Shown here: positions 38,756 to 52,770 of the stretch, piece by piece | How the letters are laid out: each line of letters starts with the position of its first letter | How positions within the stretch are numbered: the stretch's first letter is position 1 | Source of the DNA: an uncultured bacterium | Lineage (GTDB): Bacteria; Patescibacteriota; JABMPQ01; CAVVCK01 | Reading direction: 5' to 3' | DNA: 64,000 bases | NCBI GenBank assembly: GCA_963746775.1 | Contig: CAVVCK010000001.1 | Span: forward strand, 19,050-83,049 | Translations under genes and position numbers: made by a program | Notes under the pieces: generated by a model | Database searches by the model: none | What the model was told of the DNA's origin: nothing | What the model saw: the letters and a program-made list of their open reading frames with translations, nothing else

Positions 38756-38780
38756 GATTTATTTACCTGGCTTTAGTCAG
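38756..38780. repeat. REP-A element copy (GATTTATTTACCTGGCTTTAGTCAG; palindromic core ctgRctttagYcag)
   Basis: Matches the copies at 39386-39489, 40868-40926 and 48143-48165, the last in opposite orientation. Confidence 0.65.
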
Positions 38781-39307
38781 CTCTTACCAGTTTTAAACTT
38801 AGAGCTATCTTCTAAATCTAATTTTATAACATTTTTAACTATTTCCACAGTAAATTCAAGTCCATGTTCTCTAACAGCTTGTGAAAAACTAGAATATGGC
38901 GATTTATTTAATTCGCTAAAATCCTGCACTTCTTTATATTTTAGCAAATTACCAATAATATATCCCCAAACATTATAGAACATTCTTTCTTCTAAAATAA
39001 TTTTTGTCCAATAATTATCCCATATCCTACGATTTATGCCATCTATTTTGTTTAACACAAATGAACTTCCACCGTTTATTACCCTGATAATATCTTTTAA
39101 CCTATTTTTATCTTCTAAATAAAATAATAAGTGATAATGATCATAAGCTATACTATAAGCATAGATAGAAATCTTAAATTTATTTTTTATATTATTTAAC
39201 TGCTTTAAAATAATATTTTTCTTTTTATTAGTATTAAAATATTTCTCATGATTAAAAGTTGGTGTGGTTAAAAAATAGTAAGAATTATTTAGAATAACTC
39301 GTGGCAT
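38777..39307 (-). mobile_element. IS200/IS605-like Y1 (HuH) transposase, REP-associated tyrosine transposase type (RAYT-1)
   Basis: HuH motif DHYHLLFYL. Downstream region with Tyr-containing WDNYWTKII. 176 aa. Flanked on both sides by REP-A palindromes. Confidence 0.6.
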
Positions 39308-39320
39308 ACAATTTTAATAT

Positions 39321-39489
39321 CCGGCTAAAGCCGGGGAAATTACTTTTTTAAAAATTCATTAAAGCGATTTGTTTTATATAAAAATGATTTATTCACCTGA
39401 CTTTAGTCAGCCTATTCTTAAAAGTGATTTATTTACCTAACTTTAGTCAGCCTATTCTTAAAAGTGATTTATTTACCTGACTTTAGTCA
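39321..39489. repeat. REP-A cluster: hairpin ccggctaaagccgg plus 3 tandem ~39-bp units
   Basis: Units at 39386-39410, 39425-39449 and 39465-39489 (gatttattYacctRactttagtcag), each followed by the identical cctattcttaaaagt. Confidence 0.7.
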
Positions 39490-39590
39490 GTTATTTTATT
39501 ATACCAAATAACCATATACCTACACAAAATCTATTTTTCTGTTAAAATATTAGCATAATTAGTATTAATTAGTATATTAGCATCGACCCA

Positions 39591-40811
39591 ATGAAAATCC
39601 TCCTAGCCAATAAATTCTACTATCTAAAAGGCGGAGCCGAACGCCACTTATTTGATTTGAAAGAATTATTAGAAGAAAACGGTCACAAGACTATTCCTTT
39701 TGCTATGCAGGATAATAAAAACGTCAACTCATCTTATTCTAAATATTTGGTAAGCCCGGTTAATTTAGAAAAATCTAGCTTTTCTCTGGAAGGAATAAAA
39801 GCAGCCGGACGAATAATTTATTCTTTTGAAGCTAGATCAAAAATGGAGGATCTAATTAAGACCGAAAAACCTGATATAGCCCATATTCATAATATTTATC
39901 ATCAAATTTCGCCTTCTATTCTAACTCCGCTCAAAAAAGCAGGTATTCCTATTGTAATGACCGTCCATGATTTTAAATTGATGTGCCCTAATTATATTTT
40001 TTATACCCAAAATAGGGTTTGTGAGCGCTGCAAAAAATATAAATACTATAATTGTGTAATCCACAAATGTGTTAAAGATTCTTATGCAGCCAGCAAGATT
40101 AATATGCTAGAAATGTATTATCACAGATTTTTAAAGATTTATAAAAATAATATTGATTTATATATTACACCCAGCCAATTTGTCAAAGACAAACTTATAG
40201 AATTTGGCTTTAATAGAAATAAAATTGAAGTTTTACCTCATTTTATAAAACAAGAACAAATTATTGAACAAAACAATTATTCAGAAAATTATATCTTATA
40301 TTTTGGCCGCCTTTCTAAAGAAAAAGGACCAGTAGTTTTATTAAAAGCAATGCAAAAGGTTAAAAATATAAAATTAAAATTAGCTGGCACAGGACCGCAA
40401 GAAAAAGAATTAAAGGATTATGTACAAAAAAATAATATGGATAATGTTGAATTCTTGGGATATTTAAAAGGTGAAAAGCTTAAAGAAGCTATTCTAAATT
40501 CCCTTTTTGTAATTATGCCCTCGGTATTTTATGAGACTTTTGGTCTAACTGTGCTAGAATCTTATACCTATGGAAAATCTGTTATAGCCTCTAATATAGG
40601 TGCTCTGCCAGAATTAGTACAAGAAGGTAAAACTGGCCTATTGTTTGAAAGTGGTAACAGTGATAACTTAGCTCAAAAAATTAATAAAATGCTTCAAAGT
40701 AGAGAAAAAATAGAAAATATGGGAAGTATGGGAAAAGAATTTAGTAAGAAATTTAATAGAGATGATTATTATGAGAAAATAAAGGAAATTTATAAGAGAA
40801 TAACCGGCTAA
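39591..40811 (+). CDS. GT4-family glycosyltransferase
   Basis: C-terminal ETFGLTVLESYTYGKSVIASNIGALPE GT-B motif. Flanked by REP-A clusters. Confidence 0.75.
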   Translation: MKILLANKFYYLKGGAERHLFDLKELLEENGHKTIPFAMQDNKNVNSSYSKYLVSPVNLEKSSFSLEGIKAAGRIIYSFEARSKMEDLIKTEKPDIAHIHNIYHQISPSILTPLKKAGIPIVMTVHDFKLMCPNYIFYTQNRVCERCKKYKYYNCVIHKCVKDSYAASKINMLEMYYHRFLKIYKNNIDLYITPSQFVKDKLIEFGFNRNKIEVLPHFIKQEQIIEQNNYSENYILYFGRLSKEKGPVVLLKAMQKVKNIKLKLAGTGPQEKELKDYVQKNNMDNVEFLGYLKGEKLKEAILNSLFVIMPSVFYETFGLTVLESYTYGKSVIASNIGALPELVQEGKTGLLFESGNSDNLAQKINKMLQSREKIENMGSMGKEFSKKFNRDDYYEKIKEIYKRITG

Positions 40812-40926
40812 AGCCGGGAAAATAACTTTTTAAAACTTACTAATACAACTTACTTAATATAAAAAGTAATTTATTTACCTGGCTTTAGTCAGATTAAAAA
40901 TGTTTTATTGGCCTGGCTTTAGCCAG
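40804..40926. repeat. REP-A cluster (ccggctaaagccgg; aatttatttacctggctttagtcag; cctggctttagccagc)
   Basis: Three palindromic copies of the same family, immediately 3' of the glycosyltransferase. Confidence 0.65.
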
Positions 40927-40976: not shown

Positions 40977-41063
40977 TTGAAACTAATTATATTAATTGGG
41001 AAGCCCACTTTCAAACGCTAATCCAGGACGGATCAACTAGGTGGGCAATTTTTCGGTAGGTTA

Positions 41064-41810
41064 TTACTCACGAGAGATGGGCGGGGTGTGCGGGGTCCAG
41101 CAGATGGAATAGCAGCCCCGATATTCCCTCTCATCGAAGCGTGGTTGTGCCAAGTATCCCTCAATTCCGCTGGAAAGACCAGCCTCCCATTCCTCGCAAG
41201 TAGGGGTTGGAGTCTCAAAATCCCAGCAGTCACCCTCGAACAACAGGGCGACGCCAGTCACGTATTCCAGAGGGCATTCACATGTTCCCGAAAACGCGAA
41301 ACCTCTCCAACCAGGCTCACTATGAGACTCATCGTCCCAAGGAAACCCGGCCAGACGGTCCCAGTCTTCACATTGTGCCTCTGAGGAAGAATCGCAGATG
41401 GGCAAATCGCTATCGGAGTCAGTGTCGTCATCAAAGTCGAAATCAGAATCGGCGTCACCGTCCGTGTCTCCGTCTACATCACCGCCACCATCTCCATCGC
41501 TATCCAAATCAGAGTCGCTGTCGGAGTCACCATCACCATCCACTTCCATATCACTGTCCGAGTCCGTATCACCGTCAGAATCACTGCCTCCATCGCTATC
41601 CATATCTCCGTCAATATCCGAGTCGCTATCGGAGTCAACATCGCTATCGCTGTCTACGTCTCCATCGACATCGCTATCGACATCCGCATCCGCATCTGCA
41701 TCATTATTTCGTGATGCATGTCCACATGCTGCCACGACCGAAGCCGCGACAACCAACATGGTCAAAAACACTACGCCCCAAAGGGCCTTCTCTTGCTGAT
41801 GCTTTCGCAT
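41064..41810 (-). CDS. GC-rich secreted lipoprotein A: conserved leader, poly-Asp/Ser/Gly acidic repeat, C-terminal 6-Cys domain
   Basis: The probable start is the second Met (41810), with RBS gaggaggaaggg upstream. Signal peptide plus lipobox (VVAACG). Repeats (DSDVDGDVDSDSD)n. The Cys-rich C-terminal domain is paralogous to that of 43142..43894. About 53% GC by eye. Confidence 0.5.
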   Translation of the reverse strand: MRKHQQEKALWGVVFLTMLVVAASVVAACGHASRNNDADADADVDSDVDGDVDSDSDVDSDSDSDIDGDMDSDGGSDSDGDTDSDSDMEVDGDGDSDSDSDLDSDGDGGGDVDGDTDGDADSDFDFDDDTDSDSDLPICDSSSEAQCEDWDRLAGFPWDDESHSEPGWRGFAFSGTCECPLEYVTGVALLFEGDCWDFETPTPTCEEWEAGLSSGIEGYLAQPRFDEREYRGCYSICWTPHTPPISRE

Positions 41811-41944
41811 CCCTTCCTCCTCAGCCCCGGAGGGCTTCATCTATAACCTACTACGAAAAGATAAAGAGCTTTCCATAGTAATTTAAGCCTTAATTTATTA
41901 TAAAATAACGATTTAAAGCCTAAATTCCTACTTTAAGATATTAA

Positions 41945-41973
41945 ATTGTGTCAATTTATAATATATTTGTCAA
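41945..41973 (-). promoter_or_regulatory. Minus-strand sigma70-like promoter of lipoprotein A (conserved module TATTGACAAATAT)
   Basis: On the minus strand: TTGACA (41968-41973), a 17-bp spacer, then CACAAT (41945-41950). The -35 module is the same as at 44063 and 46119. Confidence 0.4.
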
Positions 41974-42015
41974 TATTTTTAAGTGCTCTATATTTTAGTT
42001 CACTACTATTATAGC

Positions 42016-42747
42016 CTAAATATCCTCATCACTATAATCCAATATAGGATAATCCTCGAAACTAGAATTTATCCATTCTCTCCCCTTTTTCCTAATCCAA
42101 GTATTAAAGCTAGAAAAATTATAAAGATTTAGTTCTTCTATATTTTTTACTTTTTTGTGTTTAATAGAGTTGTTATGTATATAGTTGAAATGCTTATAGA
42201 AATCTTCTTCATCGCGAATGCAATGGTCCCAATATTGATACCATATTTTACGTTTTGAAGTATTATTTATTTTATTTAAAATCCTGGAACTATCTTTATG
42301 TATTTTTCTAATAAATTCTACTAGTTGATATTTAGACGCGAAATTCGTTTCACTCATTTCGCTATTCCTTAATTCATCACCTCTAGGATTAGCAAATTGA
42401 CTGGCCTGCCCGCCGGAGAGGCGGGAAGGAAATTTGCGTTCTGCAGCTGACGCGAAATTCACTCCGTTCATTTCGCTATTCCTTAAATCACTTTCTTTAG
42501 GATTAGCAAATTGAGCGAAGCGAAATTTGCGCTTTATATGAAATAATAAATGATAATGATTATCCATTATTACCCAAGCATAGATTTTTATATTAAATCT
42601 TTGAATAGATTTAATTAGTACGCTTTTTAATACTTCTTTTCTATTATCAGTATTAAAATAACAAATCTCTTCGTGCGTTCTAGAAGTTAAAAAATAAATC
42701 TGATTATCTCTATAAATATGTGGCGGACGATGTTTTTCTTTTGGCAT
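42016..42747 (-). mobile_element. IS200-like HuH tyrosine transposase (RAYT-2) carrying an in-frame insertion of its own REP-B palindromes
   Basis: HuH motif DNHYHLLFH. C-terminal WYQYWDHCIRDEEDFYKHFNYIHNN is RAYT-like. A roughly 70-aa segment (aa 72-140, nt 42328-42534) is encoded by two tandem REP-B units (FAQFANP appears twice). Possibly a pseudogene. Confidence 0.55.
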
Positions 42748-42756
42748 ATTTTTGTT

Positions 42757-42960
42757 TTTAGGATTAGCAAATTAAGTATAACAAAATTTGTGCTCTTTAA
42801 AATTACTAGGATTAGCAAATTGAGCTATTTATCCGCCAAAGAGGAGGAATGCGAAATTTGCGCTTTGTAAATTACCAGGATTAGCAAATTGACTGGAAGG
42901 AAATTTGCGCTACGTGTAGTAAGCGCGAAATTCCCCATTAGGGTCATTTCGCTAGTCCTG
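42757..42960. repeat. REP-B array: 3 units of AGGATTAGCAAATTGA...GGAAATTTGCGCT
   Basis: Palindromic arms GCAAATT/AATTTGC. Further copies at 42330-42545 (2 units), 45955-46070, and cores at 7205 and 36735. Confidence 0.65.
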
Positions 42961-43141
42961 ATTTTATTATTATATCAAAAAAACAGCCTATTTGCTGCTT
43001 ATGTGAAATGCTTAACTAATTGATGTGGAATTGTGAGCCCGCGTAAGATTGGATGTCTCTTACGCGGGTGTTCAAGAATGAACATGGGCTCCAGCTACCC
43101 GGGGTTACACTGGATTTTGGTAGGATTCGTTTTTTTGACGA

Positions 43142-43894
43142 CTAGAACCACTCGGGGTGGCAGTCACCGCCAGGGGGGAGGTCGCAGTAGGCGACGTTCA
43201 AGCACTCCCCGCCGGTCCTGCCGAGTGCCCGTTCCCCAGCGATCGCGTCCACCGACCCGTACGCAGCCTCAGCTTCGACGCAAGCGTCTCCGCTGTCTCC
43301 AGGACCCCAGTTCGTCGGAACCCAACATCCGTCGGGGAAACGGATAATGATCTGGGTTCCACCGGGAGTGACCTCGACAGCACCGGGACACCCTCCCCAA
43401 GCACCTGCTGCCCGCGGATGATCGAAAGCTTGACATTGCGAAATGTCGGCTTCCTCACACATGGGCTCGGGCTCGATCGGGGTCGTATCACCGTCGGAAT
43501 CGCCATCGCTGTCGGAGTCCGCGTCGCCGTCGCCGCCGTTGAGGTTGTTCTCGACGTTGACGTCGACATCGACGTTCACGTCGATCTCGGCACAATCCGC
43601 GACCCCGTTGCCGTCCTCGTCGGCGAAGCCCTCGTCGATCTGCCCGTCGCAGTCGTCGTCGATGTTGTTGCAAATCTCCGGAGCGCCGGGATAGACCGAG
43701 GGGTTGCTGTCGTTGCAGTCGCGGCCACCGTCGCCGACGGCCTCGAAGCTGTCCTGGTCGAGATCGTACACGTACGTCTCGATCGTATCCGGCCCGCAGC
43801 CGGTGTTGAAGGTCACCACGACCAGAAGGGTCGCGATGAGCGTTGCGGTTTCGATCAACTTGCCCCGAAGGGCCTTCTCGTGATGCTCTTGCAT
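43142..43894 (-). CDS. GC-rich secreted lipoprotein B: conserved leader, MopE-like Cys-rich metal-binding motif, acidic repeat, 6-Cys C-terminal domain
   Basis: Leader MQEHHEKALRG, compared with A's MRKHQQEKALWG. Lipobox FNTGCG. Motif RDCNDSNPSVYPGAPEICNNIDDDCDGQIDE. (DVNVDVDV)(DGDADSDSDGDSDGD) repeats. C-terminus aligns with A. About 65% GC by eye. Confidence 0.55.
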   Translation of the reverse strand: MQEHHEKALRGKLIETATLIATLLVVVTFNTGCGPDTIETYVYDLDQDSFEAVGDGGRDCNDSNPSVYPGAPEICNNIDDDCDGQIDEGFADEDGNGVADCAEIDVNVDVDVNVENNLNGGDGDADSDSDGDSDGDTTPIEPEPMCEEADISQCQAFDHPRAAGAWGGCPGAVEVTPGGTQIIIRFPDGCWVPTNWGPGDSGDACVEAEAAYGSVDAIAGERALGRTGGECLNVAYCDLPPGGDCHPEWF

Positions 43895-44044
43895 CTCTCT
43901 TCTCCTTGCGGCCCCTTGGGTCCGCCTTGTTTCCTCAAAAAAATCCTAGAAGGTACACCTTAAATTATTATTTATAATATTTTAAGGTGTAACTTCATTT
44001 AATTGCTATTTTTAAAGTACTACACTATTTTATTTTAACACTAT

Positions 44045-44073
44045 ATTATATCACTTTTTACTATATTTGTCAA
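44045..44073 (-). promoter_or_regulatory. Minus-strand consensus sigma70 promoter of lipoprotein B
   Basis: On the minus strand: TTGACA (44068-44073), a 17-bp spacer, then TATAAT (44045-44050). Confidence 0.55.
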
Positions 44074-44291
44074 TAGATTTCTTAATAATTCTTTATACCA
44101 GATACTAGCTTCTAAATACTATATTCTTGCCTTTTAGCAGCTCATATTTAGCATAAATCCCCTCCCTTATTATCTTGTTCTTGTGTTATCTTGTTATTTT
44201 GATTTAAGGAGGGTATTTTGCGTCAGCACAAGTATGATCTTTTTAATTTGATCAACTGTGCTGACGCAGGTGGGATTTTTGAGGTGGGAAA

Positions 44292-44624
44292 TTACCGGTG
44301 AGTGACAACCGTATGGTCGCCGTCAGACGCCTCCACGGCGCCCCATGTGCCGAGACCGACACCGGCACCGAGAGCTACGCTCCCGAAGCCGATGAGCAGC
44401 CCACAGGCCACTCGGTTCCGGTGACACCAGTCCGGCTGGGTTTCCACGGTCGTCGGACCTTCCACGTCGTCGGGAAGGGGGGTCGAGGTGACCTCGCCGT
44501 CCTCGTCCAGACCAAACTGAACGGGACGATCCTCGCGCACCACCTGAAAGGTGGACACGCCGCAACCGACCGAGCCGAACACCACGACCATCGCGATCGC
44601 CGCCAACTTCGTCATGTCTCTCAT
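44292..44624 (-). CDS. GC-rich small lipoprotein C
   Basis: Likely start MRDMTKL, with RBS aaggagaaggaaag upstream. Signal peptide plus lipobox FGSVGCG. About 60% GC by eye. The first Met at 44696 is less likely. Confidence 0.4.
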   Translation of the reverse strand: MRDMTKLAAIAMVVVFGSVGCGVSTFQVVREDRPVQFGLDEDGEVTSTPLPDDVEGPTTVETQPDWCHRNRVACGLLIGFGSVALGAGVGLGTWGAVEASDGDHTVVTHR

Positions 44625-44974
44625 CTTTCCTTCTCCTTCGTTCCTTGACCCTGCCATGACCCCCCTCTTTCTCAAGAGGAGGTCGGTTATGACCACCCTA
44701 AGGGGGGCCGTGTTTCCTTACCTCAAAATGTGAAATGTACTAACCTTGAAGGTATACCTAGAATTATTATATTTATAACAACTTAAGGCATAACTTCCCT
44801 TGTTCGCCGAAGCCTAATGGCGTAGGCGGATATTTTCTTCCTAATCTCTACTCCCTACTAACTACTAACTACTCACTAATAAAGAATTGGAAGCACCCGC
44901 GCATCAGTAGACATGGTAGGAACGAACCGAAGTTCGTCTATGTCATACTATAATGATGCGCGGGGCTTTTGAGG

Positions 44975-45655
44975 CTAGGGGCAGACTCGAGTATGCTGAC
45001 CACCGAAGTGAGTCAGCTCGATGCACCGTCGTCCGCGAGGACGGGGCGGCGCTTCTGCCACCTTCGTGGGGGTGGGGGGAACGGTGGGCTCCTCGGCGAC
45101 CGGGGTGGGCGGATTCGGCAGCCTTGGCGCAGGAGGCGTCTTGTTCGGGCTTGGGGCCTTCGCATGATCGTCCTCGTCGCAGTCGCCGCACTCTTCGATA
45201 CGGGTCAGAATTTCTTCCGCCCGGTCATCGATGTGTCCATTGACCGCTCCGACTCCTCTGTCGACCTCACTCGAGACGTGACCCTTGATGTCCGTCGCGA
45301 CACCGTCGGTGTGGGAATTGACGGCGTTGACCGTCTTTCCCAACTCCGACCGGAGCTGACCGAGGGTCACGCCGGTCGGCTGTCCCTTGACGGGTGCCGG
45401 CGCGGGGTTCGTCGGCGGGGGCGGCCGGTCGGGGGTCAGCGTGTTGTCCGCCTCCTGCGCTTCCGCGTCGCCACCGAACAGCCCGAGGGCCCAAGCTCCT
45501 CCGAATCCAAGCCCCACCAGAAGCACAACCATTACGATCGCCCACTTCCAGTGGGTCCTCACGTTGGCCGCGGCCCTGCGGATGCGCCCGGGCTGCGGTT
45601 CTTCGGTCACCGTCTCTGTCTCGGTCCCTTCTTCGGTCCCTGTCTCGTCGGCCAT
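44975..45655 (-). CDS. GC-rich single-pass membrane protein D with Pro-rich extracytoplasmic region (anti-sigma-factor-like topology)
   Basis: RBS aaaggagg. Acidic N-terminus. TM helix WAIVMVVLLVGLGFGGAWALGLF. Pro-rich segments PDRPPPPTNPAPAP and PPAPRLPNPPTP. Confidence 0.4.
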   Translation of the reverse strand: MADETGTEEGTETETVTEEPQPGRIRRAAANVRTHWKWAIVMVVLLVGLGFGGAWALGLFGGDAEAQEADNTLTPDRPPPPTNPAPAPVKGQPTGVTLGQLRSELGKTVNAVNSHTDGVATDIKGHVSSEVDRGVGAVNGHIDDRAEEILTRIEECGDCDEDDHAKAPSPNKTPPAPRLPNPPTPVAEEPTVPPTPTKVAEAPPRPRGRRCIELTHFGGQHTRVCP

Positions 45656-45954
45656 TTCTGGCCTCCTTTCTTTCTATCGTTTCCAACAATGAACTTCCAT
45701 CTTTCTTTCGATTGATTGAAGTCCGCGATTTTAAGAAACAATATTTATATTATTCCCTAAAAGCGAAACTCCAACCGTGTCCGCCAAAGCCTAATGGCGT
45801 AGGCGGATTTTTCATATAGCCTCAATTTATAAAATGTGCTCTCTTTAAAAAACAAATATCGTTTTATTAATCTTTCTTAATTAAGCTTTATTTGTCTTTT
45901 AATTATATGGATTTTAATGTGCAAGTTCTCACTAGCTCATTTCCTTAATCCTTA

Positions 45955-46070
45955 TCCCAGGATTAGCAAATTGACTGGCTTGCCCGCCGTCAGAGGCGGG
46001 AAGGAAATTTGCGTTTCGTACAGTAGGCGCGAAATTCGCTTCACTCATTTCGCTATTCCTTGATTCCAAA
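45955..46070. repeat. REP-B composite unit (isolated copy)
   Basis: caggattagcaaattgactggcttgcccgccgtcagaggcgggaaggaaatttgcg...gcgaaattcgcttcactcatttcgc matches the units at 42330-42545. Confidence 0.6.
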
Positions 46071-46100
46071 TTCCTAATTCCGTATTTTCAATAACACCGC

Positions 46101-46129
46101 AGTATAGCATATTGTAACATATTTGTCAA
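46101..46129 (-). promoter_or_regulatory. Minus-strand sigma70-like promoter upstream of protein D
   Basis: On the minus strand: TTGACA (46124-46129), a 17-bp spacer, then TATACT (46101-46106). Confidence 0.45.
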
Positions 46130-46430
46130 TACTATTTACCCACCTTTTTATATACTAAAAACAAGGCTTTTTTTGGGCTTAAATTAGACTACTCCAGATT
46201 AGACTTTTCTAAAAACATTGTTTTTATATAAAATATCTTTTTGCAAAATATTCGTAACAGCCTTACGGCTGTTAATCTTGATAATATTATTTTTTAGGAC
46301 TACCACTCGTAATGATGTTATTGTTTTAATAAAATTCTACATTCTAATGGATTTTTGCCCGCGCCAGAACTTATTAAGTTAAGACGCGGGCTATGAGATG
46401 CAGCGAACTAGTCGCTGCTTTGAGGTAGGA

Positions 46431-47420
46431 TCATGGAGGTGCTGCCCGGTAGGCTATCCCTATCTTGTCTTGCACCACGGCTTGACCGAGGTGCTCTGGA
46501 GTATCAGGTGGAATTTCTGAAATGTACGTATTCCACCCTGCTCCACAGACCGATAGGAAGAGATAGCGATCTCCCCTGCCGCGCAGCTCAGCGTACTGCC
46601 AGCCTCTCCATTGCCCCCGGCTTATCAACTGCCCAGGGATAAATGTCGGACTGACGTCTTCGCCAAAAACTGCTACGCAGGAGAAATACTCACTTCTCCA
46701 CCAAAGCCCCCGACCCCTACGGAAAATATTATCTACCGAGCCTTGATAGGTGGGGCTTTTCAACACCAGATTCCGTGGAGGTGGCGAACGCGGCTCAATC
46801 CGCTTGGAAGCCTGCTTTTTCGCCTTTGTCGCCTGAATCGGCCGACGCACCACCTTGCTGTGCGACAAACCCAGAGACTGAAACCACGGAGAAGGAGAAG
46901 GCACAGAAATCCAAATAATATAACCCAAACCAGCCAAAATCGATACTAGGCAAAAACCGACGAAAACACGCAATTTCCAAGGCGAGGGCTGCCAGCCCAT
47001 ATAATCAATCTCGATTTCTTTTTCAGAAGAGTCATCTTCACTATCTGAATCAGAACCAGTCTTGACGTCGCCATGGTCTTCTTCAAAATCAGCACTATTG
47101 ACACTCTCTTCCGGAGAGCTACCATCACTCTGATTTTCCGAGTTGGCTCCCCCCTTGCCATCTTGACTTTCTCCAATCCCGATTATTGACTTCCAAGTTA
47201 AATCCTCGGGGTCAATTCCGGAATATCCCGGCACTGTGCTATCCCCTCTCAGGGGACTTTCCGAACATATTCTCACAGAACGGGGAGGCTCCGGCGGCCT
47301 TAAGATATGACGAGAAGGAGGAACAAGCCCCCTTAACTCAGACATACAATATCCACAATTCGTACAAAAAGCATATTCTACCTCATGTCCACACTTCGGA
47401 CACTTTTTCATCTCACTCAT
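46431..47420 (-). CDS. Zinc-ribbon membrane protein E
   Basis: N-terminal zinc ribbon CPKCGHEVEYAFCTNCGYC. Acidic S/D/E segment. One TM helix VFVGFCLVSILAGLGYIIWISV. C-terminal domain of unknown function. About 50% GC by eye. Confidence 0.4.
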   Translation of the reverse strand: MSEMKKCPKCGHEVEYAFCTNCGYCMSELRGLVPPSRHILRPPEPPRSVRICSESPLRGDSTVPGYSGIDPEDLTWKSIIGIGESQDGKGGANSENQSDGSSPEESVNSADFEEDHGDVKTGSDSDSEDDSSEKEIEIDYMGWQPSPWKLRVFVGFCLVSILAGLGYIIWISVPSPSPWFQSLGLSHSKVVRRPIQATKAKKQASKRIEPRSPPPRNLVLKSPTYQGSVDNIFRRGRGLWWRSEYFSCVAVFGEDVSPTFIPGQLISRGQWRGWQYAELRGRGDRYLFLSVCGAGWNTYISEIPPDTPEHLGQAVVQDKIGIAYRAAPP

Positions 47421-47883
47421 GACTATCCCCTTCCCATCTCCATGGAGGTTTTGTTGTTTGCAAATTAATAAAAATACCTAATTATTCACAATAAGCTGCA
47501 AACAACTTTTTTACTCACCAATTCCAATTCTACATTATAAATTATACATTTTGCATTCATTTATCTACCTCAATTTTAAAAAAGAACGCTCTTATCCTAT
47601 GACATATAACCAAAGTCTTCGAATACATACACCTTTTACTTTAAATTAAAGAATAAAAATTTTATTCAAAAATGTTTAATAACTTTTGACTAAGGCTGTA
47701 TTTTTAAGATAAAAGAACATTATATTTAATCATAAAATAATAATATGTCAAACCCAAAAAGGTTAAAAACAGCTGTCTATTTAAAATCTTATAAAATTTA
47801 AAAAACGGTGGATAATTTATCTTTGATTCAAATTAAATTTTACATTAAAATAATAAGCACCTCTAAAAAATAACTACAAAAAA

Positions 47884-48138
47884 ATGGTACAAAATAAAAA
47901 GAAAACTAAGCAAAAAACTCAAAAAGAAATAGCTCTAGAATTAATAAAATTAATGCCCGATAGCATTGAATGGAGTGATATAAACAGTATTTTCTATGAG
48001 AAAGGAAGATTAGAGAAAACATTGAATGATGCTTTTGAAAAAGGAATTTTAACTAAAAAAGAAGCCCTGAAGCGCTATAATATGTTAGATAAGACAATAA
48101 TTACCGATTGGCTTAAAAATAAGTATGGTTTTGAATAA
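47884..48138 (+). CDS. Small hypothetical protein (84 aa)
   Basis: The ORF has native AT-rich codon usage. No recognisable domain. Confidence 0.3.
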   Translation: MVQNKKKTKQKTQKEIALELIKLMPDSIEWSDINSIFYEKGRLEKTLNDAFEKGILTKKEALKRYNMLDKTIITDWLKNKYGFE

Positions 48139-48298
48139 GAAGCTGGCTAAAGCCAGGTAAATAAAAACACTTTTTACCACGTACGAAATTTCAAGAATAC
48201 TTATAAAATTTTACATAATCCACAAAATTTCGTACGTGGTTTACTAAAAATAAAAAATGTGCTAACTTATAAATATTATACAAAAATAATCAATTTCT

Positions 48299-48691
48299 AT
48301 GGATAAGGAATTAAAAAACGAATTTGAAAAAATTAATAAACATTTCGAAAAAGTTGACAAGCGATTTGATAAAATAAATTCTCAAATTGAAATTTTAGCC
48401 GCTACTATTAATAACGATGTAGCTAAAAAAGAAGATTTAGAAAATTTAGAGAAAAAAATGGACACTGGCTTTGAAAAAATGAATAAAAAATTTAAAGATC
48501 TAGAAGAAAATGTAAACGACATATCTGCTAAAGTACAAATACAAAAAAACGTCCCCATTATTAGAAAAGTTAATGAGAAAGTAAACAAACATATTGAAAT
48601 TCATGAAAAAAGAGGAAATATAACTAAAGAAGATATAGCTGTAATTAGTAAAATTAATCCCTTCCCAAGCAAAGAAGCTCTAGCCCAATAA
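48299..48691 (+). CDS. Hypothetical coiled-coil protein (130 aa)
   Basis: Heptad-like K/E-rich sequence. The ORF is followed by a clear terminator. Confidence 0.35.
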   Translation: MDKELKNEFEKINKHFEKVDKRFDKINSQIEILAATINNDVAKKEDLENLEKKMDTGFEKMNKKFKDLEENVNDISAKVQIQKNVPIIRKVNEKVNKHIEIHEKRGNITKEDIAVISKINPFPSKEALAQ

Positions 48692-48703
48692 TAATTTCTA
48701 TAA

Positions 48704-48741
48704 AACCTACTTGAAAGATAAATTTATAAGTAGGTTTTTTT
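48704..48741 (+). terminator. Rho-independent terminator
   Basis: 9-bp stem aacctactt/aagtaggtt followed by TTTTTT. Confidence 0.7.
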
Positions 48742-48834
48742 AATTGTAAGGTATATAAATAATTTAATCCCCTATAAAAGCAAAACAGACCGGGCGGATG
48801 CCAGATCTGAACTCTAGGAAGGTGCAAAAAAGAA

Positions 48835-49242
48835 CTAATATTTCAACAACAAAAATCCAAAAATAGCTAAAATCAATAATGCAGTAATGATACCGGCGAT
48901 AGCCTTAATCCTGCCCTGTGCCATCCCGGGCACAATAATTTCCTCCTCTGAGAACTCTTCTTTCTTCATTGCCTCTTTAGTCTCATCATCATCAATAAAA
49001 ACATTTTCTTGTTGAGCTCCTTCCAGAAGCTCAAACCCCCGTTGGGTTGTCCTGGGATCCTCTACTGCTTTCAAAACAACCTTAGGGGCCATGCCATTAG
49101 GAGATTGTATTCTAGGAGTCGGCATCCCCATGGTGGTACCCATATGGGGGCGCTCTGGGAGAGCTTCTAATCTTTTTGGCTTTTCTCCTTTCTTTCCAAC
49201 GCCTTTACCGATAACCTTGATTGGCTTTCCATTAGAAGACAT
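48835..49242 (-). CDS. Hypothetical tail-anchored membrane protein (135 aa)
   Basis: A single C-terminal TM helix IAGIITALLILAIFGFLLL. No recognisable domain. Confidence 0.3.
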   Translation of the reverse strand: MSSNGKPIKVIGKGVGKKGEKPKRLEALPERPHMGTTMGMPTPRIQSPNGMAPKVVLKAVEDPRTTQRGFELLEGAQQENVFIDDDETKEAMKKEEFSEEEIIVPGMAQGRIKAIAGIITALLILAIFGFLLLKY

Positions 49243-49390
49243 GATTCCTCTCTTCTCCCCTTAGGGATTATGCGTGTTATTACAACATGCTATTACACCA
49301 TTTTGATATTAAAAAATCAATAAATTATATTAAATAATGACAATTTAATTAAATTTATATATTATAACAAGGACTTAATAAACTATAATT

Positions 49391-50518
49391 ATGATACACA
49401 ATTCATTACTTTTAACCAAATTCTTTCCGCCAGACAAAGGCGGTATCCAAAATTATTTATACAATATTTGTAAAAATTTAGAAAATAATAAAATATTTGT
49501 ATTAACGGAAAAAGAAGCTAAAAATAAAGAAGATTTTAAAATTTTTAGCTATAAAACAAAAAAAATATATTCATATTTAAACTTAAGCTTTTTGCCTGTC
49601 CTCCTTGAAGCTTCAAAAATAATAAAAAATAATAATATAGAAAATCTACTTTTAGGCCATTTCTATGTTCCCTACGCCCTATCTGCCCTAATTTTAAAAA
49701 AATTTAAAAAAATACCCTATACCATATTCACTCACGGATTAGAAATATTAGAAACAAAAAATAGCCGTAAAACGGATTATATTCTAAAGCTCTGTTTTAA
49801 AAATGCTCAAAATATTATTGTTACGACAGATTATTTAAAAAGAGAAATTATTAATAAATACCCCAATCTTAATTTAGATAAAAAAATAATAAAAATACCA
49901 CCCGGAGTTGATTCTGATTTTTTTAAACCTAATTTGGACATATCAAATTTAAGAAAATATCATAACCTGGAAGATAAAAAAATAATCTTTACCTGCGGAA
50001 GATTGGTTAAAAGAAAAAATCATCAGCTCATCATAAAAGCTCTGCCAGAAATTATAGAAAAAGTTCCTAATATTATTTATTTAATTGGAGGAGTGGGCCC
50101 CGAGGAAGAAAACTTAAAAAAACAAGTAATCACGCTTAATCTGGAAAATAACATAAAATTCCTAGGAGAAGTTAAAAATAAAGATTTGCCCCTATTTTAC
50201 AATTTAGCTGACATCTTCTGCATGCCTTCTACCTACAATAAAGAAAAAGGCGATGTTGAAGGCTTTGGCTTAGTCTTTATAGAAGCGCAGGCCTGTGAAA
50301 CTCCCACTATAGGTTCAAATACAGGAGGCATCCCTGATGCTATTATTAATAATATAGATGGATACCTTATAAATCCAGACTCAAGCCAAGAATTAGCTCA
50401 AAAAGTTATAGAGCTATTATTGAACAACAATTTAGCTCAACAATTTGGAAGAGCTGGCAGAGAGAAAGTTGTAAGAGAGCATAATTGGAGCAAGTTAGTT
50501 AAGAAGTTACCACGGTGA
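49391..50518 (+). CDS. GT4-family glycosyltransferase
   Basis: C-terminal EGFGLVFIEAQACETPTIGSNTGGIPD GT-B motif. Confidence 0.75.
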   Translation: MIHNSLLLTKFFPPDKGGIQNYLYNICKNLENNKIFVLTEKEAKNKEDFKIFSYKTKKIYSYLNLSFLPVLLEASKIIKNNNIENLLLGHFYVPYALSALILKKFKKIPYTIFTHGLEILETKNSRKTDYILKLCFKNAQNIIVTTDYLKREIINKYPNLNLDKKIIKIPPGVDSDFFKPNLDISNLRKYHNLEDKKIIFTCGRLVKRKNHQLIIKALPEIIEKVPNIIYLIGGVGPEEENLKKQVITLNLENNIKFLGEVKNKDLPLFYNLADIFCMPSTYNKEKGDVEGFGLVFIEAQACETPTIGSNTGGIPDAIINNIDGYLINPDSSQELAQKVIELLLNNNLAQQFGRAGREKVVREHNWSKLVKKLPR

Positions 50519-50721
50519 CATCCGAGATTGCCAATGTTAAATTAAAGTAGGTTGGGTTGAGTAATCGAAACCCAACAAATAAACTCTGAGTTACGCTTCG
50601 CTCAACCCAAACTACTAAATAATATAATCCTCAATAATTCACATCAACAGCACCAATCTTAGAAATCCTCTTCTGACTCCTCTTTTTTAAAGGAGGAGGG
50701 CTAGAGTAATTTTCTCACCAA

Positions 50722-50750
50722 TAAAAAAACCGCCAATAAGGCGGTTTTAA
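50722..50750. terminator. Bidirectional terminator between convergent genes
   Basis: Stem aaccgcc/ggcggtt with loop aataa, flanked by A-run and T-run. Confidence 0.65.
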
Positions 50751-50766
50751 AATATTCAAATTCTAA

Positions 50767-51411
50767 TTAAACCTTATCGCTTAATTTATACGCTTCGCTT
50801 TTTTCTACTTTCTTAGAACCCATCAACACAGTTATAACTATTGACAATAATATTCCTAAAGCCAAACCGGCAAAAGTATTTAATAATATATTAGGTCTAA
50901 CAGTCTTCTCTGAGGTAATAGGTAAATCCACCATTTTAATTTCAATCTGAGAGCCTCCACCATGATAATATTGACCATAATTGATCATGGTATAAGCTAT
51001 GCCAAAAGCAATTTGTTCCGCTTGTTTCTGATCTTCATTATAAACACTAATTTGAATAGAACCCGTTTCGTCGCTTAACTTTACCTTAACTCTATCTTCC
51101 CATTTCTTTTTTCTTTTCTCTGGATCAGAACCAAAATCATCATTTATATCAAATTTAGAAGTTAAAACTCTATCAAAAAAACTGGAGGTATAAACCATTT
51201 TAGAGATAACCTCACCAACTGTCTGAGCAGATCTAGCCGCCGTATAAGCATCAAGCCTTTGACCTTGATTCTGTATAACTAAAAGCTTTACATCAGATCT
51301 GTACTCAGGCTTCTGCACCGCACTAATACCAAAACTAGAAACAGTAATTAATACTGTTAATAGCAGGAAAAGATGCCAATATTTTTTAAGTATTTCAATA
51401 TAAATATTCAC
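50767..51411 (-). CDS. Polysaccharide co-polymerase / chain-length determinant-like protein (Wzz/CapA-YveK type)
   Basis: Two TM helices, one N-terminal and one C-terminal (GLALGILLSIVITVL), around a periplasmic-type domain. Adjacent to GT4 genes. Confidence 0.45.
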   Translation of the reverse strand: MNIYIEILKKYWHLFLLLTVLITVSSFGISAVQKPEYRSDVKLLVIQNQGQRLDAYTAARSAQTVGEVISKMVYTSSFFDRVLTSKFDINDDFGSDPEKRKKKWEDRVKVKLSDETGSIQISVYNEDQKQAEQIAFGIAYTMINYGQYYHGGGSQIEIKMVDLPITSEKTVRPNILLNTFAGLALGILLSIVITVLMGSKKVEKSEAYKLSDKV

Positions 51412-51503
51412 TTTTTTATAATTTAAAAATTATACTTTATTTAAACAAAAATTATTATAACATATAAACTATAAAAAATCAAGACTAAATTGTAATTTTT
51501 GTT

Positions 51504-52703: not shown

Positions 52704-52770
52704 TTCAAATAATTAAACTATTTCTCAAAAATTTTGTTATCTTACTCTTGTGTTTTAATGTTTTTTCGAC

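What the first reader, a model, noticed from the sequence alone, without database searches (positions are those of the whole stretch)
41000..47450. Cassette-like array of GC-rich secreted lipoprotein and membrane-protein genes in a ~30% GC genome
Five minus-strand ORFs stand out from the host composition: A 41064-41810, B 43142-43894, C 44292-44624, D 44975-45655 and E 46431-47420. Their GC content is about 50-65% by eye, and their codon usage is GC3-rich, against AAA/AAT-dominated neighbours. A simple chimeric or contaminant insert seems unlikely, because the genes are separated by host-like AT-rich spacers. Those spacers carry three features. The first is nearly identical consensus promoters (41945-41973, 44045-44073, 46101-46129). 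The second is a conserved 5'-UTR hairpin. The third is the genome's own REP and RAYT elements. All five products are exported: A, B and C have lipoprotein signal peptides, and D and E have single TM helices. Two readings seem possible. One is a multigene family of variable surface lipoproteins, analogous to mycoplasma Vlp/Vsp loci with a conserved promoter and leader and a variable repeat body. The other is an acquisition platform expressing genes captured from high-GC bacteria, for example the host of an epibiotic lifestyle. Either would be an undescribed system for this kind of genome.
Basis: partly seen in the sequence, partly recalled or inferred. Interest (0 to 1): 0.85.

Follow-up and report, generated by a model that had tools for sequence, protein, structure and literature searches.

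The report
GC-rich surface-gene island in Parcubacteria
A tiny AT-rich (31% GC) candidate-phyla-radiation bacterium carries a conserved row of six secreted or membrane-protein genes with foreign-looking 43-64% GC coding sequence, each mounted on its own host-type promoter and structured leader and trailer; the GC-richness has lasted longer than simple decay of imported DNA predicts, and no described system accounts for this.

Summary
ORFs A-E, plus a sixth (F, 48835-49242), have GC3 0.41-0.77 against 0.14-0.25 for host genes. They are separated by 18-30% GC spacers carrying near-consensus promoters, a 5' stem-loop with covariation, REPs and a RAYT gene. It is not a chimera: other assemblies reproduce the junctions, and the same gene order (F-E-D-C-B-RAYT-A, between two GT4 glycosyltransferase genes) recurs in related genomes from other samples, again GC-rich in AT-rich DNA.

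It is not a Vlp/Vsp-type switching family: only A and B are paralogs, and there is no switch element. It is not an integron: no integrase, each gene has its own promoter, and the order is fixed.

New here: each unit is bounded by complementary boxes (5' TTGAGGTAGG / 3' CCTACCTCAA) and followed by a GC-rich hairpin. The proteins are essentially lineage-restricted orphans under purifying selection.

Synonymous sites in flanking genes keep almost no memory between genomes (rho 0.085). Passive decay should therefore have erased the GC-richness, yet gene-specific GC3 is kept. A slower clock from the embedded RAYT leaves recent capture borderline.

Best reading: a recombining surface-protein locus of foreign origin whose GC-rich, highly structured mRNAs are maintained by selection. 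The main rival is cassette capture still ameliorating.

The parts
48835..49242 (-). Gene F: 135-aa tail-anchored membrane protein with GC 0.43 and GC3 0.41. It is the sixth GC-elevated gene and was not in the finding.
   Evidence: Orthologs sit at the same position in L002 and L006. It is absent in the closest relative, L087.
47720..47752 (-). E promoter (TTGACA, then TGnTTAAAT/TATAAT region). It is conserved in four genomes.
   Evidence: Read (window, L002, L006, L087). It was not listed by the consensus scan.
47564..47573 (-). E 5' box, TTGAGGTAGA (Shine-Dalgarno-like). It is complementary to the box that follows the E stop codon.
   Evidence: The 5' and 3' boxes of C and E are the only 4 matches with 1 mismatch or fewer in the window.
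46431..47420 (-). Gene E: zinc-ribbon N-terminus, one transmembrane helix, and a conserved C-terminal outer domain. GC3 is 0.47.
   Evidence: For the C-terminal domain, dN is 0.14 and dS is 0.82 against L087.
46357..46429 (-). E trailer: 3' box CCTACCTCAA (46420-46429) directly after the stop codon, then two GC-rich hairpins (46400-46418 and 46357-46391).
   Evidence: The same layout is present in L087, L002 and L006.
46101..46129 (-). D promoter, TTGACA-17-TATACT with an upstream TG.
   Evidence: It is conserved in L002 and L006.
45959..46091 (.). A type-2 REP copy (AGGATTAGCAAATT...) inside the long D leader.
45815..45828 (-). D 5' box, ATTGAGGCTATA.
   Evidence: It gives 9 perfect base pairs with the D 3' box; 0 of 200 shuffles reach that length.
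44975..45655 (-). Gene D: 226-aa signal-anchored protein with a Pro-rich region and a Cys-containing C-terminus. GC3 is 0.76.
   Evidence: Orthologs in L002 and L006 share the motif PPTKVAEAP...RR.C.
44893..44977 (-). D trailer: 3' box TAGCCTCAAAA, which overlaps the stop codon, followed by a long hairpin CCCCGCGCATCA...TGATGCGCGGG.
   Evidence: The hairpin has 20 pairs and is nearly invariant in sequence in 3 genomes, with 4 copies in total.
44717..44799 (-). C leader: AT-rich stem-loop (44744-44799) and 5' box TTGAGGTAAG (44717-44726). No promoter was found upstream of it.
44292..44624 (-). Gene C: 110-aa lipoprotein with a Gly-rich C-terminal hydrophobic segment. GC3 is 0.77.
44218..44288 (-). 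C trailer: 3' box CCCACCTCAA (44279-44288) and a hairpin (about 44220-44267).
43929..44073 (-). B upstream module: promoter (44045-44073), stem-loop (43945-43998) and 5' box TTTTTGAGGAAAC (43929-43943).
43142..43894 (-). Gene B: lipoprotein-like, with a MopE metal-binding motif, an Asp-rich linker and a Cys-rich C-terminal domain. GC3 is 0.77.
   Evidence: (PF11617, 49.3 bits against a cut-off of 27).
43037..43124 (-). B trailer: weaker 3' box CCTACCAAAA (43115-43124) and hairpin (43037-43070).
42016..42933 (-). RAYT gene (42016-42747) with type-2 REP copies both inside and beside it. It holds the same position, between B and A, in all relatives.
   Evidence: Positions in relatives: L002, L006 and L089.
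41841..41973 (-). A upstream module: promoter (41945-41973), stem-loop (41875-41929) and 5' box TTTTCGTAGTAGGTTA (41841-41859).
41064..41810 (-). Gene A: lipoprotein with an Asp/Ser-rich repeat linker and the same Cys-rich C-terminal domain as B. GC3 is 0.53.
   Evidence: For the C-terminal domain against L002, dN is 0.21 and dS is saturated.
41003..41066 (-). A trailer: 3' box TAACCTACCGAAAAA, which overlaps the stop codon, and a hairpin (41003-41046).

Best explanation
This is a conserved, lineage-specific cell-surface locus of a small AT-rich Parcubacteria (Patescibacteria/CPR) lineage. It sits between cell-envelope glycosyltransferase genes.

Content. It encodes two paralogous Cys- and Asp-rich lipoproteins (A, B), a small lipoprotein (C) and three single-pass membrane proteins (D, E, F). 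These are probably a host- or environment-contact apparatus.

Architecture. The genes look foreign (GC-rich codons in all families, almost no Lys). Four or five of them are autonomous expression units (C has no promoter of its own and may be co-transcribed with D). A unit runs in this order, with the 5' stem-loop present only in A, B and C:
1. a near-consensus sigma-70 promoter;
2. an AT-rich 5' stem-loop;
3. a Shine-Dalgarno-like box;
4. a short GC-rich leader hairpin and the true SD;
5. the CDS;
6. an anti-SD-like box complementary to the 5' box;
7. a long GC-rich hairpin.

Shown: the anatomy, its conservation and synteny in at least 4 related genomes, purifying selection on the proteins, and GC-richness confined to these units while interleaved genes are host-like.

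Inferred:
(i) The genes derive from GC-rich bacteria.
(ii) The 5' and 3' boxes pair in the mRNA (as in B. subtilis hbs and S. aureus icaR) and, together with the terminal hairpins, make long-lived transcripts.
(iii) The GC-rich coding composition is held near a gene-specific equilibrium by selection on the transcript (strongly folded, nuclease-resistant mRNA for abundant surface proteins). It is not simply a fading trace of import.
(iv) The locus is exchanged between relatives by recombination in the conserved flanks.
For: Reality and conservation:
- A Logan assembly matches window 43643-53723 at 99.99%.
- Syntenic GC-rich islands occur in ERZ1757541 (a 1.05 Mb contig) and ERZ24794656/648, and the E ortholog with the same promoter, boxes and flanking GT4a gene on a short contig from JGI 3300037424.

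Gene-specific composition:
- GC3 keeps the same ranking in three genomes: B .77/.71/.61, C .77/.67/.55, D .76/.74/.56, A .52/.53/.35, E .47/.41/.35, F .41/.34/.26.
- The RAYT, toxin-antitoxin and coiled-coil genes interleaved in the island have GC3 .14-.21.

Persistence:
- The S/W (G/C versus A/T) state correlation at 2,420 synonymous sites of 10 flank genes between the window and L002 is 0.085 (CI .045-.129). Under that process even an ancestral GC3 of 1.0 would now be at or below .43-.49.
- In well-aligned domains rho is about 0 while GC3 is equal in both genomes: A domain .57/.58, E domain .52/.53.
- 27% of strictly aligned sites that are G or C in both genomes differ (C versus G).

Real proteins: dN/dS is about 0.17 for the E domain; for the A domain dN is .21 with dS saturated.

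Expression and mRNA features:
- Promoters.
- Hairpin covariation and specificity.
- Complementary boxes: 9-11 nt for A-E in the window, and island-specific at 1 mismatch or fewer. There is a compensatory C-G to T-A change in the D family, read.
- A conserved 3' hairpin.
- Predicted mRNA folding energy is -0.35 to -0.50 kcal/mol per nt in island genes against -0.16 to -0.20 in host genes. It is also below synonymous-codon shuffles for C and D (z = -3.2 each).

Precedents for 5'/3'-UTR pairing: PMC5737220, PMC3868564.

Decoupled genealogies: between the window and L087, E has dS .82 against .28 for the flank. Between the window and L002, the RAYT has dS .72 against 1.5-1.7 for the flanks.
Against: - Selection on synonymous sites this strong is unexpected in a reduced symbiont. 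No expression data exist.
- The clock is uncertain. The RAYT embedded in the island is less diverged than the flanks (rho .31), and island spacers are 66-78% identical against about 51% for host spacers. The island may therefore be younger than the genomes. On that clock a still-decaying import from a donor with GC3 about 0.95 is possible for A and E and borderline for B-D.
- In the closest pair, polarised changes lean towards A/T (10 against 4; the outgroup is saturated).
- L006 shows GC3 below GC1, a classic amelioration signature.
- The excess of mRNA structure is absent for A (z = -0.4) and rests on only 24 shuffles.
- Box pairing rests on short motifs and on one clean compensatory change. 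At the DNA level the boxes are equally well inverted repeats.
Confidence: 0.42

Rival explanations
1. Cassette capture that is still ameliorating. GC-rich units (leader + CDS + terminator hairpin), bounded by short inverted repeats, were inserted one at a time behind resident AT-rich promoter and hairpin slots in a recombination-prone surface locus. They came from GC-rich bacteria such as the episymbiont's hosts. The island is younger than the genome divergence and spread among relatives by recombination. Its GC-richness is decaying at different stages (F > E > A > B-D; L006 furthest along).
For: - GC-rich composition starts right after the 5' box and ends after the 3' hairpin, while the spacers are fully host-like.
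- Codon usage resembles a genome of about 65% GC in all families, including G-ending codons.
- MopE motifs are typical of GC-rich phyla.
- One homolog carrying two A/B domains lies on a GC-rich contig from a sister sample.
- The RAYT and the spacers are less diverged than the flanks.
- L006 has GC3 below GC1.
- Polarised changes lean towards A/T, 10 against 4.
- Content varies: F is absent in the closest relative, and L006 has an extra 1,079-aa MopE gene with the same type of promoter.
- The hairpin module is shared by the non-homologous genes B and C.
- DprA is present.
Against: - The order and orthology are the same in three diverged genomes.
- No integrase or recombinase was found among the window ORFs scanned, and there is no attC-like GTTRRRY core.
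- D returned no hit at all (not even itself), E's only hits are these relatives, and no homolog of C turned up by chance in the searches run on other genes; C was never itself used as a query.
- The A/B domain has about 8 representatives in 1.84 billion proteins.
- The flank clock forbids GC3 above 0.49. Even on the RAYT clock, B-D exceed the central estimate.
- The A/B duplication is deep (21-33% identity in the C-terminal domain) and predates the split of the three genomes, yet both copies keep GC3 of about 0.6 in the shared domain.
Confidence: 0.3
2. Recurrent replenishment. The genes decay towards A/T but are repeatedly overwritten, wholly or in patches, by gene conversion from GC-rich homologs taken up as DNA (from host DNA or a GC-rich mobile element). 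This keeps only the homologous coding parts GC-rich.
For: - GC-richness tracks the conserved outer domain of E, while its non-conserved N-terminus is AT-rich in L002 and L087.
- Synonymous divergence of E is three times that of the flank between close relatives.
- The N-terminal part of E differs completely between the window and L087.
- DprA competence gene.
- P0061 sits on a GC-rich contig.
Against: - No GC-rich reservoir of E or D homologs exists among 5.8 billion proteins; C was not searched.
- P0061 itself has GC3 of only 0.42, lower than B.
- Close relatives share 17 of 18 identical G/C-G/C sites in E, so there has been no recent overwrite there.
Confidence: 0.1
3. A phase- or size-variable lipoprotein family of the mycoplasma Vlp/Vsp kind: a conserved promoter and leader, a variable repeat body, and switching between members.
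For: - A and B share promoter, hairpin and leader peptide, and have Asp-rich degenerate repeats.
- All products are exported.
Against: - There are only two paralogs; C-F are unrelated to them.
- The promoter spacers have no homopolymer tract.
- There are no inverted recombination sites flanking the promoters, and no recombinase among the window ORFs scanned.
- Order and content are stable across genomes.
- The tandem repeats score low.
Confidence: 0.03
4. Assembly chimera or contamination: GC-rich fragments from another organism were stitched into an AT-rich contig.
For: Only the abrupt composition steps themselves.
Against: - The junctions are reproduced by a different assembler.
- They are reproduced in two samples of another population at 99.99% identity.
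- They are present in a 1.05 Mb contig and its Logan counterpart, and in a JGI contig.
- The junction sequences (boxes, hairpins, promoters) are conserved across species.
Confidence: 0.01

Closest known systems
Compositionally atypical genomic islands from horizontal transfer, with amelioration (Lawrence-Ochman model; from my own knowledge)
   Same: Foreign-looking base composition, codon usage and amino-acid usage in a contiguous set of accessory, surface-related genes. One lineage (L006) shows GC3 below GC1, as expected during amelioration.
   Different: - The intergenic DNA is fully host-like while the CDSs are not.
- The island is syntenic and orthologous in genomes whose flanking synonymous sites are nearly randomised.
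- There is no tRNA, integrase or direct-repeat boundary.
- No donor homologs exist beyond a short motif.
Integron cassette arrays
   Same: Co-oriented genes, each followed by an imperfect hairpin, with short conserved sequences at the unit boundaries and foreign-looking cargo.
   Different: - Every unit except C has its own strong promoter.
- No IntI or attI was found among the window ORFs scanned (about 20 of about 57).
- The boundary boxes are TTGAGGTAGG/CCTACCTCAA, not GTTRRRY.
- The order is fixed among relatives.
Mycoplasma Vlp/Vsp/Vsa variable surface lipoprotein loci
   Same: An AT-rich reduced genome, clustered lipoprotein genes, a shared promoter, leader and signal peptide between two members, and an acidic repeat body.
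   Different: - Only two paralogs.
- No poly-A or inversion switch.
- GC-rich rather than host-like coding sequence.
- Stable orthology across genomes.
Long-range 5'/3'-UTR pairing in bacterial mRNAs: B. subtilis hbs (PMC5737220) and S. aureus icaR (PMC3868564)
   Same: A 9-14 nt complementarity between an SD-like 5'-UTR segment and a C/U-rich segment just after the stop codon, in strongly expressed or tightly controlled monocistronic mRNAs with structured leaders.
   Different: - Here the pairing recurs in five neighbouring genes with gene-specific matched variants.
- It flanks compositionally foreign CDSs.
- It is untested experimentally, and a DNA-level role as inverted repeats is not excluded.
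MopE-type 'putative metal-binding motif' (PF11617) Cys-rich secreted proteins, and Asp/Ser-repeat adhesins (Sdr/Clf type)
   Same: B (and A in L006) carry PF11617 motifs. A has an Asp/Ser-rich linker that weakly matches SD-repeat regions.
   Different: - The C-terminal Cys-rich domain of A and B is a separate, nearly lineage-restricted domain with no structural match.
- The Sdr matches are low-complexity only and far below the family cut-offs.
REP/RAYT systems
   Same: Two RAYT genes with their own REP types lie in and next to the island. The boxes contain GTAG/CTAC next to hairpins, as REPs do.
   Different: The REPs occupy the AT-rich spacers and differ in sequence from the unit-bounding boxes and hairpins. 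No evidence links RAYT activity to the GC-rich units.

Membership tests
Vlp/Vsp-type variable lipoprotein family | Several paralogous lipoprotein genes with a highly conserved 5' region | tested here: not met
   Only A and B are paralogs, sharing promoter, hairpin, leader and C-terminal domain. C-F are unrelated.
Vlp/Vsp-type variable lipoprotein family | A switching device: a homopolymer tract in the promoter spacer, or a site-specific inversion with a recombinase | tested here: not met
   The promoter spacers read have no homopolymer tract. No inverted repeats flank the promoters. No recombinase was found among the ORFs scanned, about 20 of about 57 in the window.
Vlp/Vsp-type variable lipoprotein family | Variable gene number and order between strains | tested here: not met
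   The order F-E-D-C-B-RAYT-A is the same in the window, L002 and L006.
Integron | IntI tyrosine recombinase with an adjacent attI and Pc | tested here: not met
   No such gene was found in or next to the island. About 20 of the window's ORFs were scanned with Pfam or NCBIfam, including all ORFs in and beside the island. The rest of the genome could not be seen.
Integron | attC sites with R''/L''-L'/R' arms and a GTTRRRY core at cassette junctions | tested here: not met
   Hairpins do follow each gene, but the junction motifs are CCTACCTCAA/TTGAGGTAGG. No attC covariance model was available.
Integron | Promoterless cassettes expressed from a common promoter | tested here: not met
   A, B, D and E each have their own conserved promoter.
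Horizontally acquired genomic island | Atypical composition relative to the genome | tested here: met
   GC3 is 0.41-0.77 against 0.14-0.25, and codon usage is GC-rich in all families.
Horizontally acquired genomic island | Patchy presence among close relatives, or mobility genes and a tRNA at the borders | tested here: not met
   The core set is present and syntenic in all relatives found. No tRNA or integrase lies at the borders. Only F and the extra L006 genes vary.
Horizontally acquired genomic island | Identifiable donor-lineage homologs | tested here: inconclusive
   Only the MopE motif is shared with outside lineages. One protein containing the A/B domain sits on a GC-rich contig. D returned no hit and E's only hits are the relatives.
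REP/RAYT | An HUH Y1 transposase of the RAYT class flanked by its REP repeats | tested here: met
   NCBIfam REP_Tyr_transpos scores 86.5 bits (cut-off 80) for 42016-42747 and 60.3 bits (below cut-off) for 38777-39307. Pfam Y1_Tnp is above its cut-off for both. REP clusters lie next to each.
5'/3'-UTR-pairing mRNAs (hbs/icaR type) | Complementary segments in the 5' leader and just after the stop codon of the same transcript | tested here: met
   Perfect complements of 9 nt for A-E in the window, 11 nt in L087 E, and 9 nt in L006 D. The motif is island-specific at 1 mismatch or fewer.
5'/3'-UTR-pairing mRNAs (hbs/icaR type) | Pairing demonstrated in RNA, with an effect on stability or translation | not testable with these tools
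   The evidence is comparative only: one clean compensatory change in the D family (C-G in the window and L002, T-A in L006) and a similar one in the C family.
MopE-type metal-binding motif proteins (PF11617) | A Pfam match above the gathering score | tested here: met
   B scores 49.3 bits against 27. L006 A scores 80.9 bits and the L006 1,079-aa protein 163 bits. Window A has no match.

The most novel reading that the evidence does not exclude
The GC-rich codon make-up is itself the functional device. In an episymbiont whose own codon usage is complementary to that of GC-rich hosts and which may import host RNA (bioRxiv 10.64898/2026.06.21.733656), these contact-apparatus genes could be kept in 'host-type' codons. 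They would then be translated efficiently only when host-derived tRNAs or RNA are present, or could even be decoded in the host. That would amount to a codon-composition switch for host contact, with the boxed, hairpin-protected mRNAs stored until then.
Probability: 0.07. Interest if true: 0.9.

Novelty: new variant of a known kind. Interest (0 to 1): 0.62.

Why it matters
Base-composition islands are routinely read as recent horizontal transfer that will fade. Here a set of exported-protein genes in a reduced, AT-rich CPR bacterium stays GC-rich, gene by gene, across relatives whose neutral sites have turned over, while DNA a few bases away is host-like.

Two outcomes are possible, and both are of interest:
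- If selection holds the composition, this would be an unusually clear case of selection on mRNA or codon composition in a tiny-genome symbiont. It would also point to which genes matter most at the cell surface of organisms whose host-contact machinery is largely unknown.
- If it is capture, it would be a new integrase-less way of mounting foreign genes on resident promoter and leader slots.

The recurring 5'/3' complementary boxes, 5' stem-loop and conserved 3' hairpin are also candidate regulatory RNA elements, so far undescribed, for Patescibacteria. No Rfam family matches them.

Tried and rejected
Searches that found nothing:
- Scan of GTDB representative genomes with the E alignment: no relative.
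- Scan of JGI metagenome contigs with the E alignment: none.
- Exact 20-mer of the conserved hairpin arm in JGI metagenome contigs: none.
- A second genome scan with the flanking GT4 gene found only relatives at 56% identity or less ('Parcubacteria group bacterium'), with no comparable island.
- Rfam at E <= 1: only chance miRNA-like hits on REPs.
- Homolog search for D: nothing.
- Cluster look-up gave no organism names.

Structure and function:
- AlphaFold of E: pLDDT 37, unusable.
- The afdb50 library was unavailable.

Technical dead ends:
- The A/B domain alignment was too divergent for locus finding.
- RNAduplex on long flanks was uninformative, because GC-rich leaders pair promiscuously. 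It was replaced by a longest-complement test.
- The first mRNA-folding script timed out.

Hypotheses considered and rejected:
- Regional mutation bias or biased gene conversion: interleaved genes are AT-rich.
- A diversity-generating retroelement: no template/variable repeat pair and no reverse transcriptase.
- Translational optimisation: G-ending and CGG/TCG/GCG codons are enriched.
- The antisense ORFs as the real genes: the Pfam motif, signal peptides, conserved Cys pattern and GC3 > GC1 > GC2 all favour the minus strand.

Literature: searches found no description of such islands in Patescibacteria.

Full report
**1. Checking the observation**

The window is 31.5% GC. One-kilobase bins between 41 and 47 kb jump to 45-58% GC, and 100-nt bins alternate between 50-77% and 18-30%. 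All five ORFs exist as described on the minus strand.

Computed properly, 39 host ORFs have GC3 of 0.14-0.25. The island ORFs have these GC3 values: A 0.53, B 0.77, C 0.74-0.77, D 0.76, E 0.47. A sixth minus-strand ORF, F (48835-49242), has GC3 0.41.

B, C and D use GC-ending codons in every family, including GCG, CCG, TCG, ACG and CGG. They never use AAA, ATA, TTA, CTA or TCA. Lys falls from 11.6% in host proteins to 1.7%. The mature parts of A, B and C contain no Lys at all.

The three promoters are the best sigma-70 matches in the region. The 11-mer TTGACAAATAT occurs only at those three places in the 64 kb.

A and C fit a lipobox pattern. B has a signal-like helix with an atypical box, whereas its orthologs have canonical boxes. 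D, E and F each have one hydrophobic helix. B has a Pfam MopE motif. Both RAYT genes and two REP types are confirmed.

**2. Not an assembly artefact**

- A Logan assembly of run ERR11571143 matches window 43643-53723 at 99.99%. It crosses every junction from inside B to beyond F.
- Homolog searches led to contigs from other samples with the same layout. These are ERZ1757541 contig_6554 (1.05 Mb, L002/L004, identical in Logan ERR4921265), ERZ24794656 and ERZ24794648 (L006/L007, 99.99% identical to each other), ERZ24794671 (L089) and JGI 3300037424 (L087).
- In each, 45-68% GC genes sit in DNA of about 28% GC.
- The order F-E-D-C-B-RAYT-A is kept between the same two GT4 glycosyltransferase genes and a radical-SAM gene.
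- The nearest GTDB representatives, at 56% identity in the flanking GT4 gene, are labelled Parcubacteria/Patescibacteria and lack such an island.
- The window otherwise holds ordinary housekeeping genes: aminoacyl-tRNA synthetases, TopA, ParAB, Mfd, RecO and DprA.

**3. Anatomy of a unit**

Reading the spacers of three to four genomes side by side shows non-coding elements that are conserved even though host intergenic DNA is not alignable (about 51% identity, against 66-78% for island spacers). The elements are as follows.

(a) Promoters for A, B, D and E. C has none and may be co-transcribed with D, or processed.

(b) An AT-rich 5' stem-loop upstream of A, B and C. It has 17 pairs, four of them with compensatory changes. 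A covariance model finds it only there in 233 kb, and it picked up the untrained copy upstream of L006 B.

(c) A Shine-Dalgarno-like box in the leader (consensus TTGAGGTAGG) and its reverse complement (CCTACCTCAA) at or overlapping the stop codon.
- All five window genes have a perfect 9-nt complement between their own leader and the 28 nt from the stop codon. The fraction of shuffles reaching this length is 0.00-0.05 per gene.
- At 1 mismatch or fewer, the motif occurs only four times in the window. These are exactly the 5' and 3' boxes of C and E.
- Variants are matched within a gene: D has GAGGCTA/TAGCCTC, and A has TTCG.TAGGTTA/TAACCTACCGAA.
- In the D family, the C-G pair of the window and L002 is T-A in L006.

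(d) A short GC-rich hairpin just before the true SD.

(e) One or two GC-rich hairpins after the 3' box. The one after D (CCCCGCGCATCA...TGATGCGCGGG) is almost invariant in three genomes.

No Rfam family matches any of this. GC-rich composition begins just after the 5' box in A, B and C and ends after the 3' hairpin.

**4. The proteins**

- A and B are paralogs. They share a leader peptide, a lipobox, an acidic repeat linker and a Cys-rich C-terminal domain of about 100 aa.
- An exhaustive profile search of 1.84 billion representatives finds that domain in only about eight real proteins. All but one come from these relatives.
- The exception is P0061: a glycosyl-hydrolase-like region, MopE motifs and two copies of the domain. 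It lies on a 3.7 kb GC-rich contig from a sister JGI sample.
- E has three hits in 5.8 billion proteins, one of them itself. D has none. Outside hits to B cover only the MopE motif.
- The proteins are under purifying selection. For the E domain, dN is 0.14 and dS 0.82. For the A domain, dN is 0.21 with dS saturated.
- Structure prediction failed for E. It gave a medium-confidence model for the A/B domain with no structural neighbour. Function is therefore inferred only from export signals, acidity, Cys content and the cell-envelope neighbourhood.

**5. The central puzzle: persistence of GC-richness**

Evidence that the composition has persisted:

- GC3 is gene-specific and ranks the same way in three genomes.
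- The RAYT, HepT/MNT toxin-antitoxin and coiled-coil genes interleaved in the island have GC3 of 0.14-0.21. This excludes a regional mutational or conversion bias.
- Between the window and L002, the S/W (G/C versus A/T) state at 2,420 synonymous third positions of ten flank genes correlates at only rho = 0.085 (CI 0.045-0.129). By Cauchy-Schwarz, the square root of rho bounds the compositional memory. So even an ancestral GC3 of 1.0 would now be at or below 0.43-0.49 under the host process. B, C and D are at 0.70-0.86 at conserved codons.
- In reliably aligned domains rho is about 0, yet GC3 is equal in both genomes.

Caveats that I could not remove:

- The RAYT inside the island is less diverged than the flanks (dS 0.72, rho 0.31), and the spacers are unusually similar. 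The island may therefore share a more recent ancestor than the genomes. On that clock a decaying import from a donor with GC3 about 0.95 is possible for A and E and borderline for B-D.
- At strictly aligned four-fold sites, 19 of the 26 sites that are G or C in both genomes are identical. That value (0.73) falls between the relic expectation (0.9 or more) and full turnover (0.51).
- In the closest pair, polarised changes lean towards A/T, 10 against 4, but the outgroup is saturated.
- In that same pair the island is older than the flank (E dS 0.82 and coiled-coil gene dS 0.64, against GT4a dS 0.28). Island and flank genealogies are therefore decoupled, as expected for a surface locus exchanged by recombination. 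DprA is present.

**6. Interpretation**

The Vlp/Vsp reading fails its defining tests, and so does an integron (see the membership table). Chimerism is excluded.

Two explanations remain:

- **Capture still ameliorating.** GC-rich units were captured from GC-rich bacteria into promoter and leader slots and are still decaying. This needs a younger island and an unknown insertion mechanism that produces inverted-repeat ends.
- **Composition maintained.** GC-richness is held by selection.

I favour maintenance by selection on the transcript, for these reasons:

- Every conserved non-coding feature is of the kind known to stabilise bacterial mRNAs: a 5' stem-loop, an SD-like box, 5'/3' pairing as in hbs (PMC5737220) and icaR (PMC3868564), and 3' hairpins.
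- The CDSs fold 2-2.5 times more strongly per nucleotide than host genes. For C and D they also fold more strongly than their own synonymous-codon shuffles (z = -3.2 each).
- The deep A/B duplication predates the three genomes, yet both copies keep GC3 of about 0.6 in the shared domain.

This is an inference held with modest confidence.

A recent preprint reports that Patescibacteria codon usage is complementary to that of GC-rich hosts and that one cultivated member imports host RNA (10.64898/2026.06.21.733656). This makes a codon-based link to host contact conceivable, but it is untested.

**7. Novelty and score**

I found no description of such islands, or of these RNA elements, in Patescibacteria.

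The kind of object, a compositionally foreign surface-protein island, is known. Three features are new:

- its persistence across diverged genomes;
- its confinement to individual expression units amid host-like DNA;
- the boxed unit architecture.

I rate it a new variant of a known kind, with interest 0.62. It is a robust and reproducible anomaly with clear decisive tests, but its function and mechanism remain inferred.

Noticed in passing
window 48835-49242 (-): A sixth GC-elevated gene, F (GC3 0.41, tail-anchored), lies beyond the finding's coordinates. Two AT-rich small genes on the plus strand (47884-48138 and 48299-48691) separate it from E. F has positional orthologs in L002 and L006. 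In the closest relative, L087, coiled-coil genes take its place.
   Followed up: partly
window 42335-42514, inside the RAYT ORF 42016-42747: Two REP copies sit in frame inside the RAYT coding sequence. The ORF is 243 aa, against 172-213 aa in orthologs, and still reads through. The L002 ortholog carries one such insert.
   Followed up: partly
window 43157-43963 (+), 44298-44648 (+), 44969-45715 (+): Full-length antisense ORFs cover B, C and D. On that strand the 3' box reads as an SD (GAGG) a few bases before a start codon. These ORFs are most likely a by-product of GC-rich composition, because the Pfam motif, the signal peptides and the GC3 > GC1 > GC2 pattern all favour the minus strand. Antisense translation was not excluded.
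   Followed up: partly
L006 11600-12221 and 14377-17616: In one relative the island also holds an AT-rich HepT/MNT toxin-antitoxin pair. It also holds a 1,079-aa protein made of ten MopE motifs (GC 0.51, GC3 0.46) on the opposite strand, with its own consensus promoter and an anti-SD-like box after its stop codon.
   Followed up: partly
L088 1275-3452 (JGI 3300037483): This is the only protein carrying the A/B domain outside the AT-rich relatives. It is 725 aa (glycosyl-hydrolase-like region + MopE motifs + two domain copies) and sits on a contig whose neighbouring ORFs have GC3 of 0.73-0.82. Its own GC3 (0.42) is lower than that of its neighbours, so the direction of any transfer is unclear.
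   Followed up: partly
window 46431-47420 compared with L087 2718-3536: Between two close relatives (flank dS 0.28) the cytoplasmic N-terminal half of E is unalignable, and it is GC-richer in the window. The outer C-terminal domain is 75% identical. This points to sub-genic replacement or mosaicism within the island.
   Followed up: partly
window 44855-44882: A (CTACTAA)x4 microsatellite lies in the D-C spacer. Similar short AT-rich repeats (tagaatc/tagtatt) occupy equivalent spacers in L002 and L087. This is possible length-variable DNA next to the leaders.
   Followed up: no
window 38762-40926 and 48143-48161; 42385-42890 and 45959-45972: Within the 64 kb, both REP types are confined to the 38.7-48.2 kb region around their RAYT genes. 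They are not dispersed across the window.
   Followed up: partly
L006 10675-11001 and 13955-14279: The 3' flanks of the paralogs B and A share a 329-nt repeat at 84% identity. The A/B duplication therefore included downstream non-coding DNA.
   Followed up: no
window 6113-7204 (+): A DprA gene (DNA-processing protein for natural transformation) is present. This is consistent with DNA uptake and recombination in this organism.
   Followed up: no
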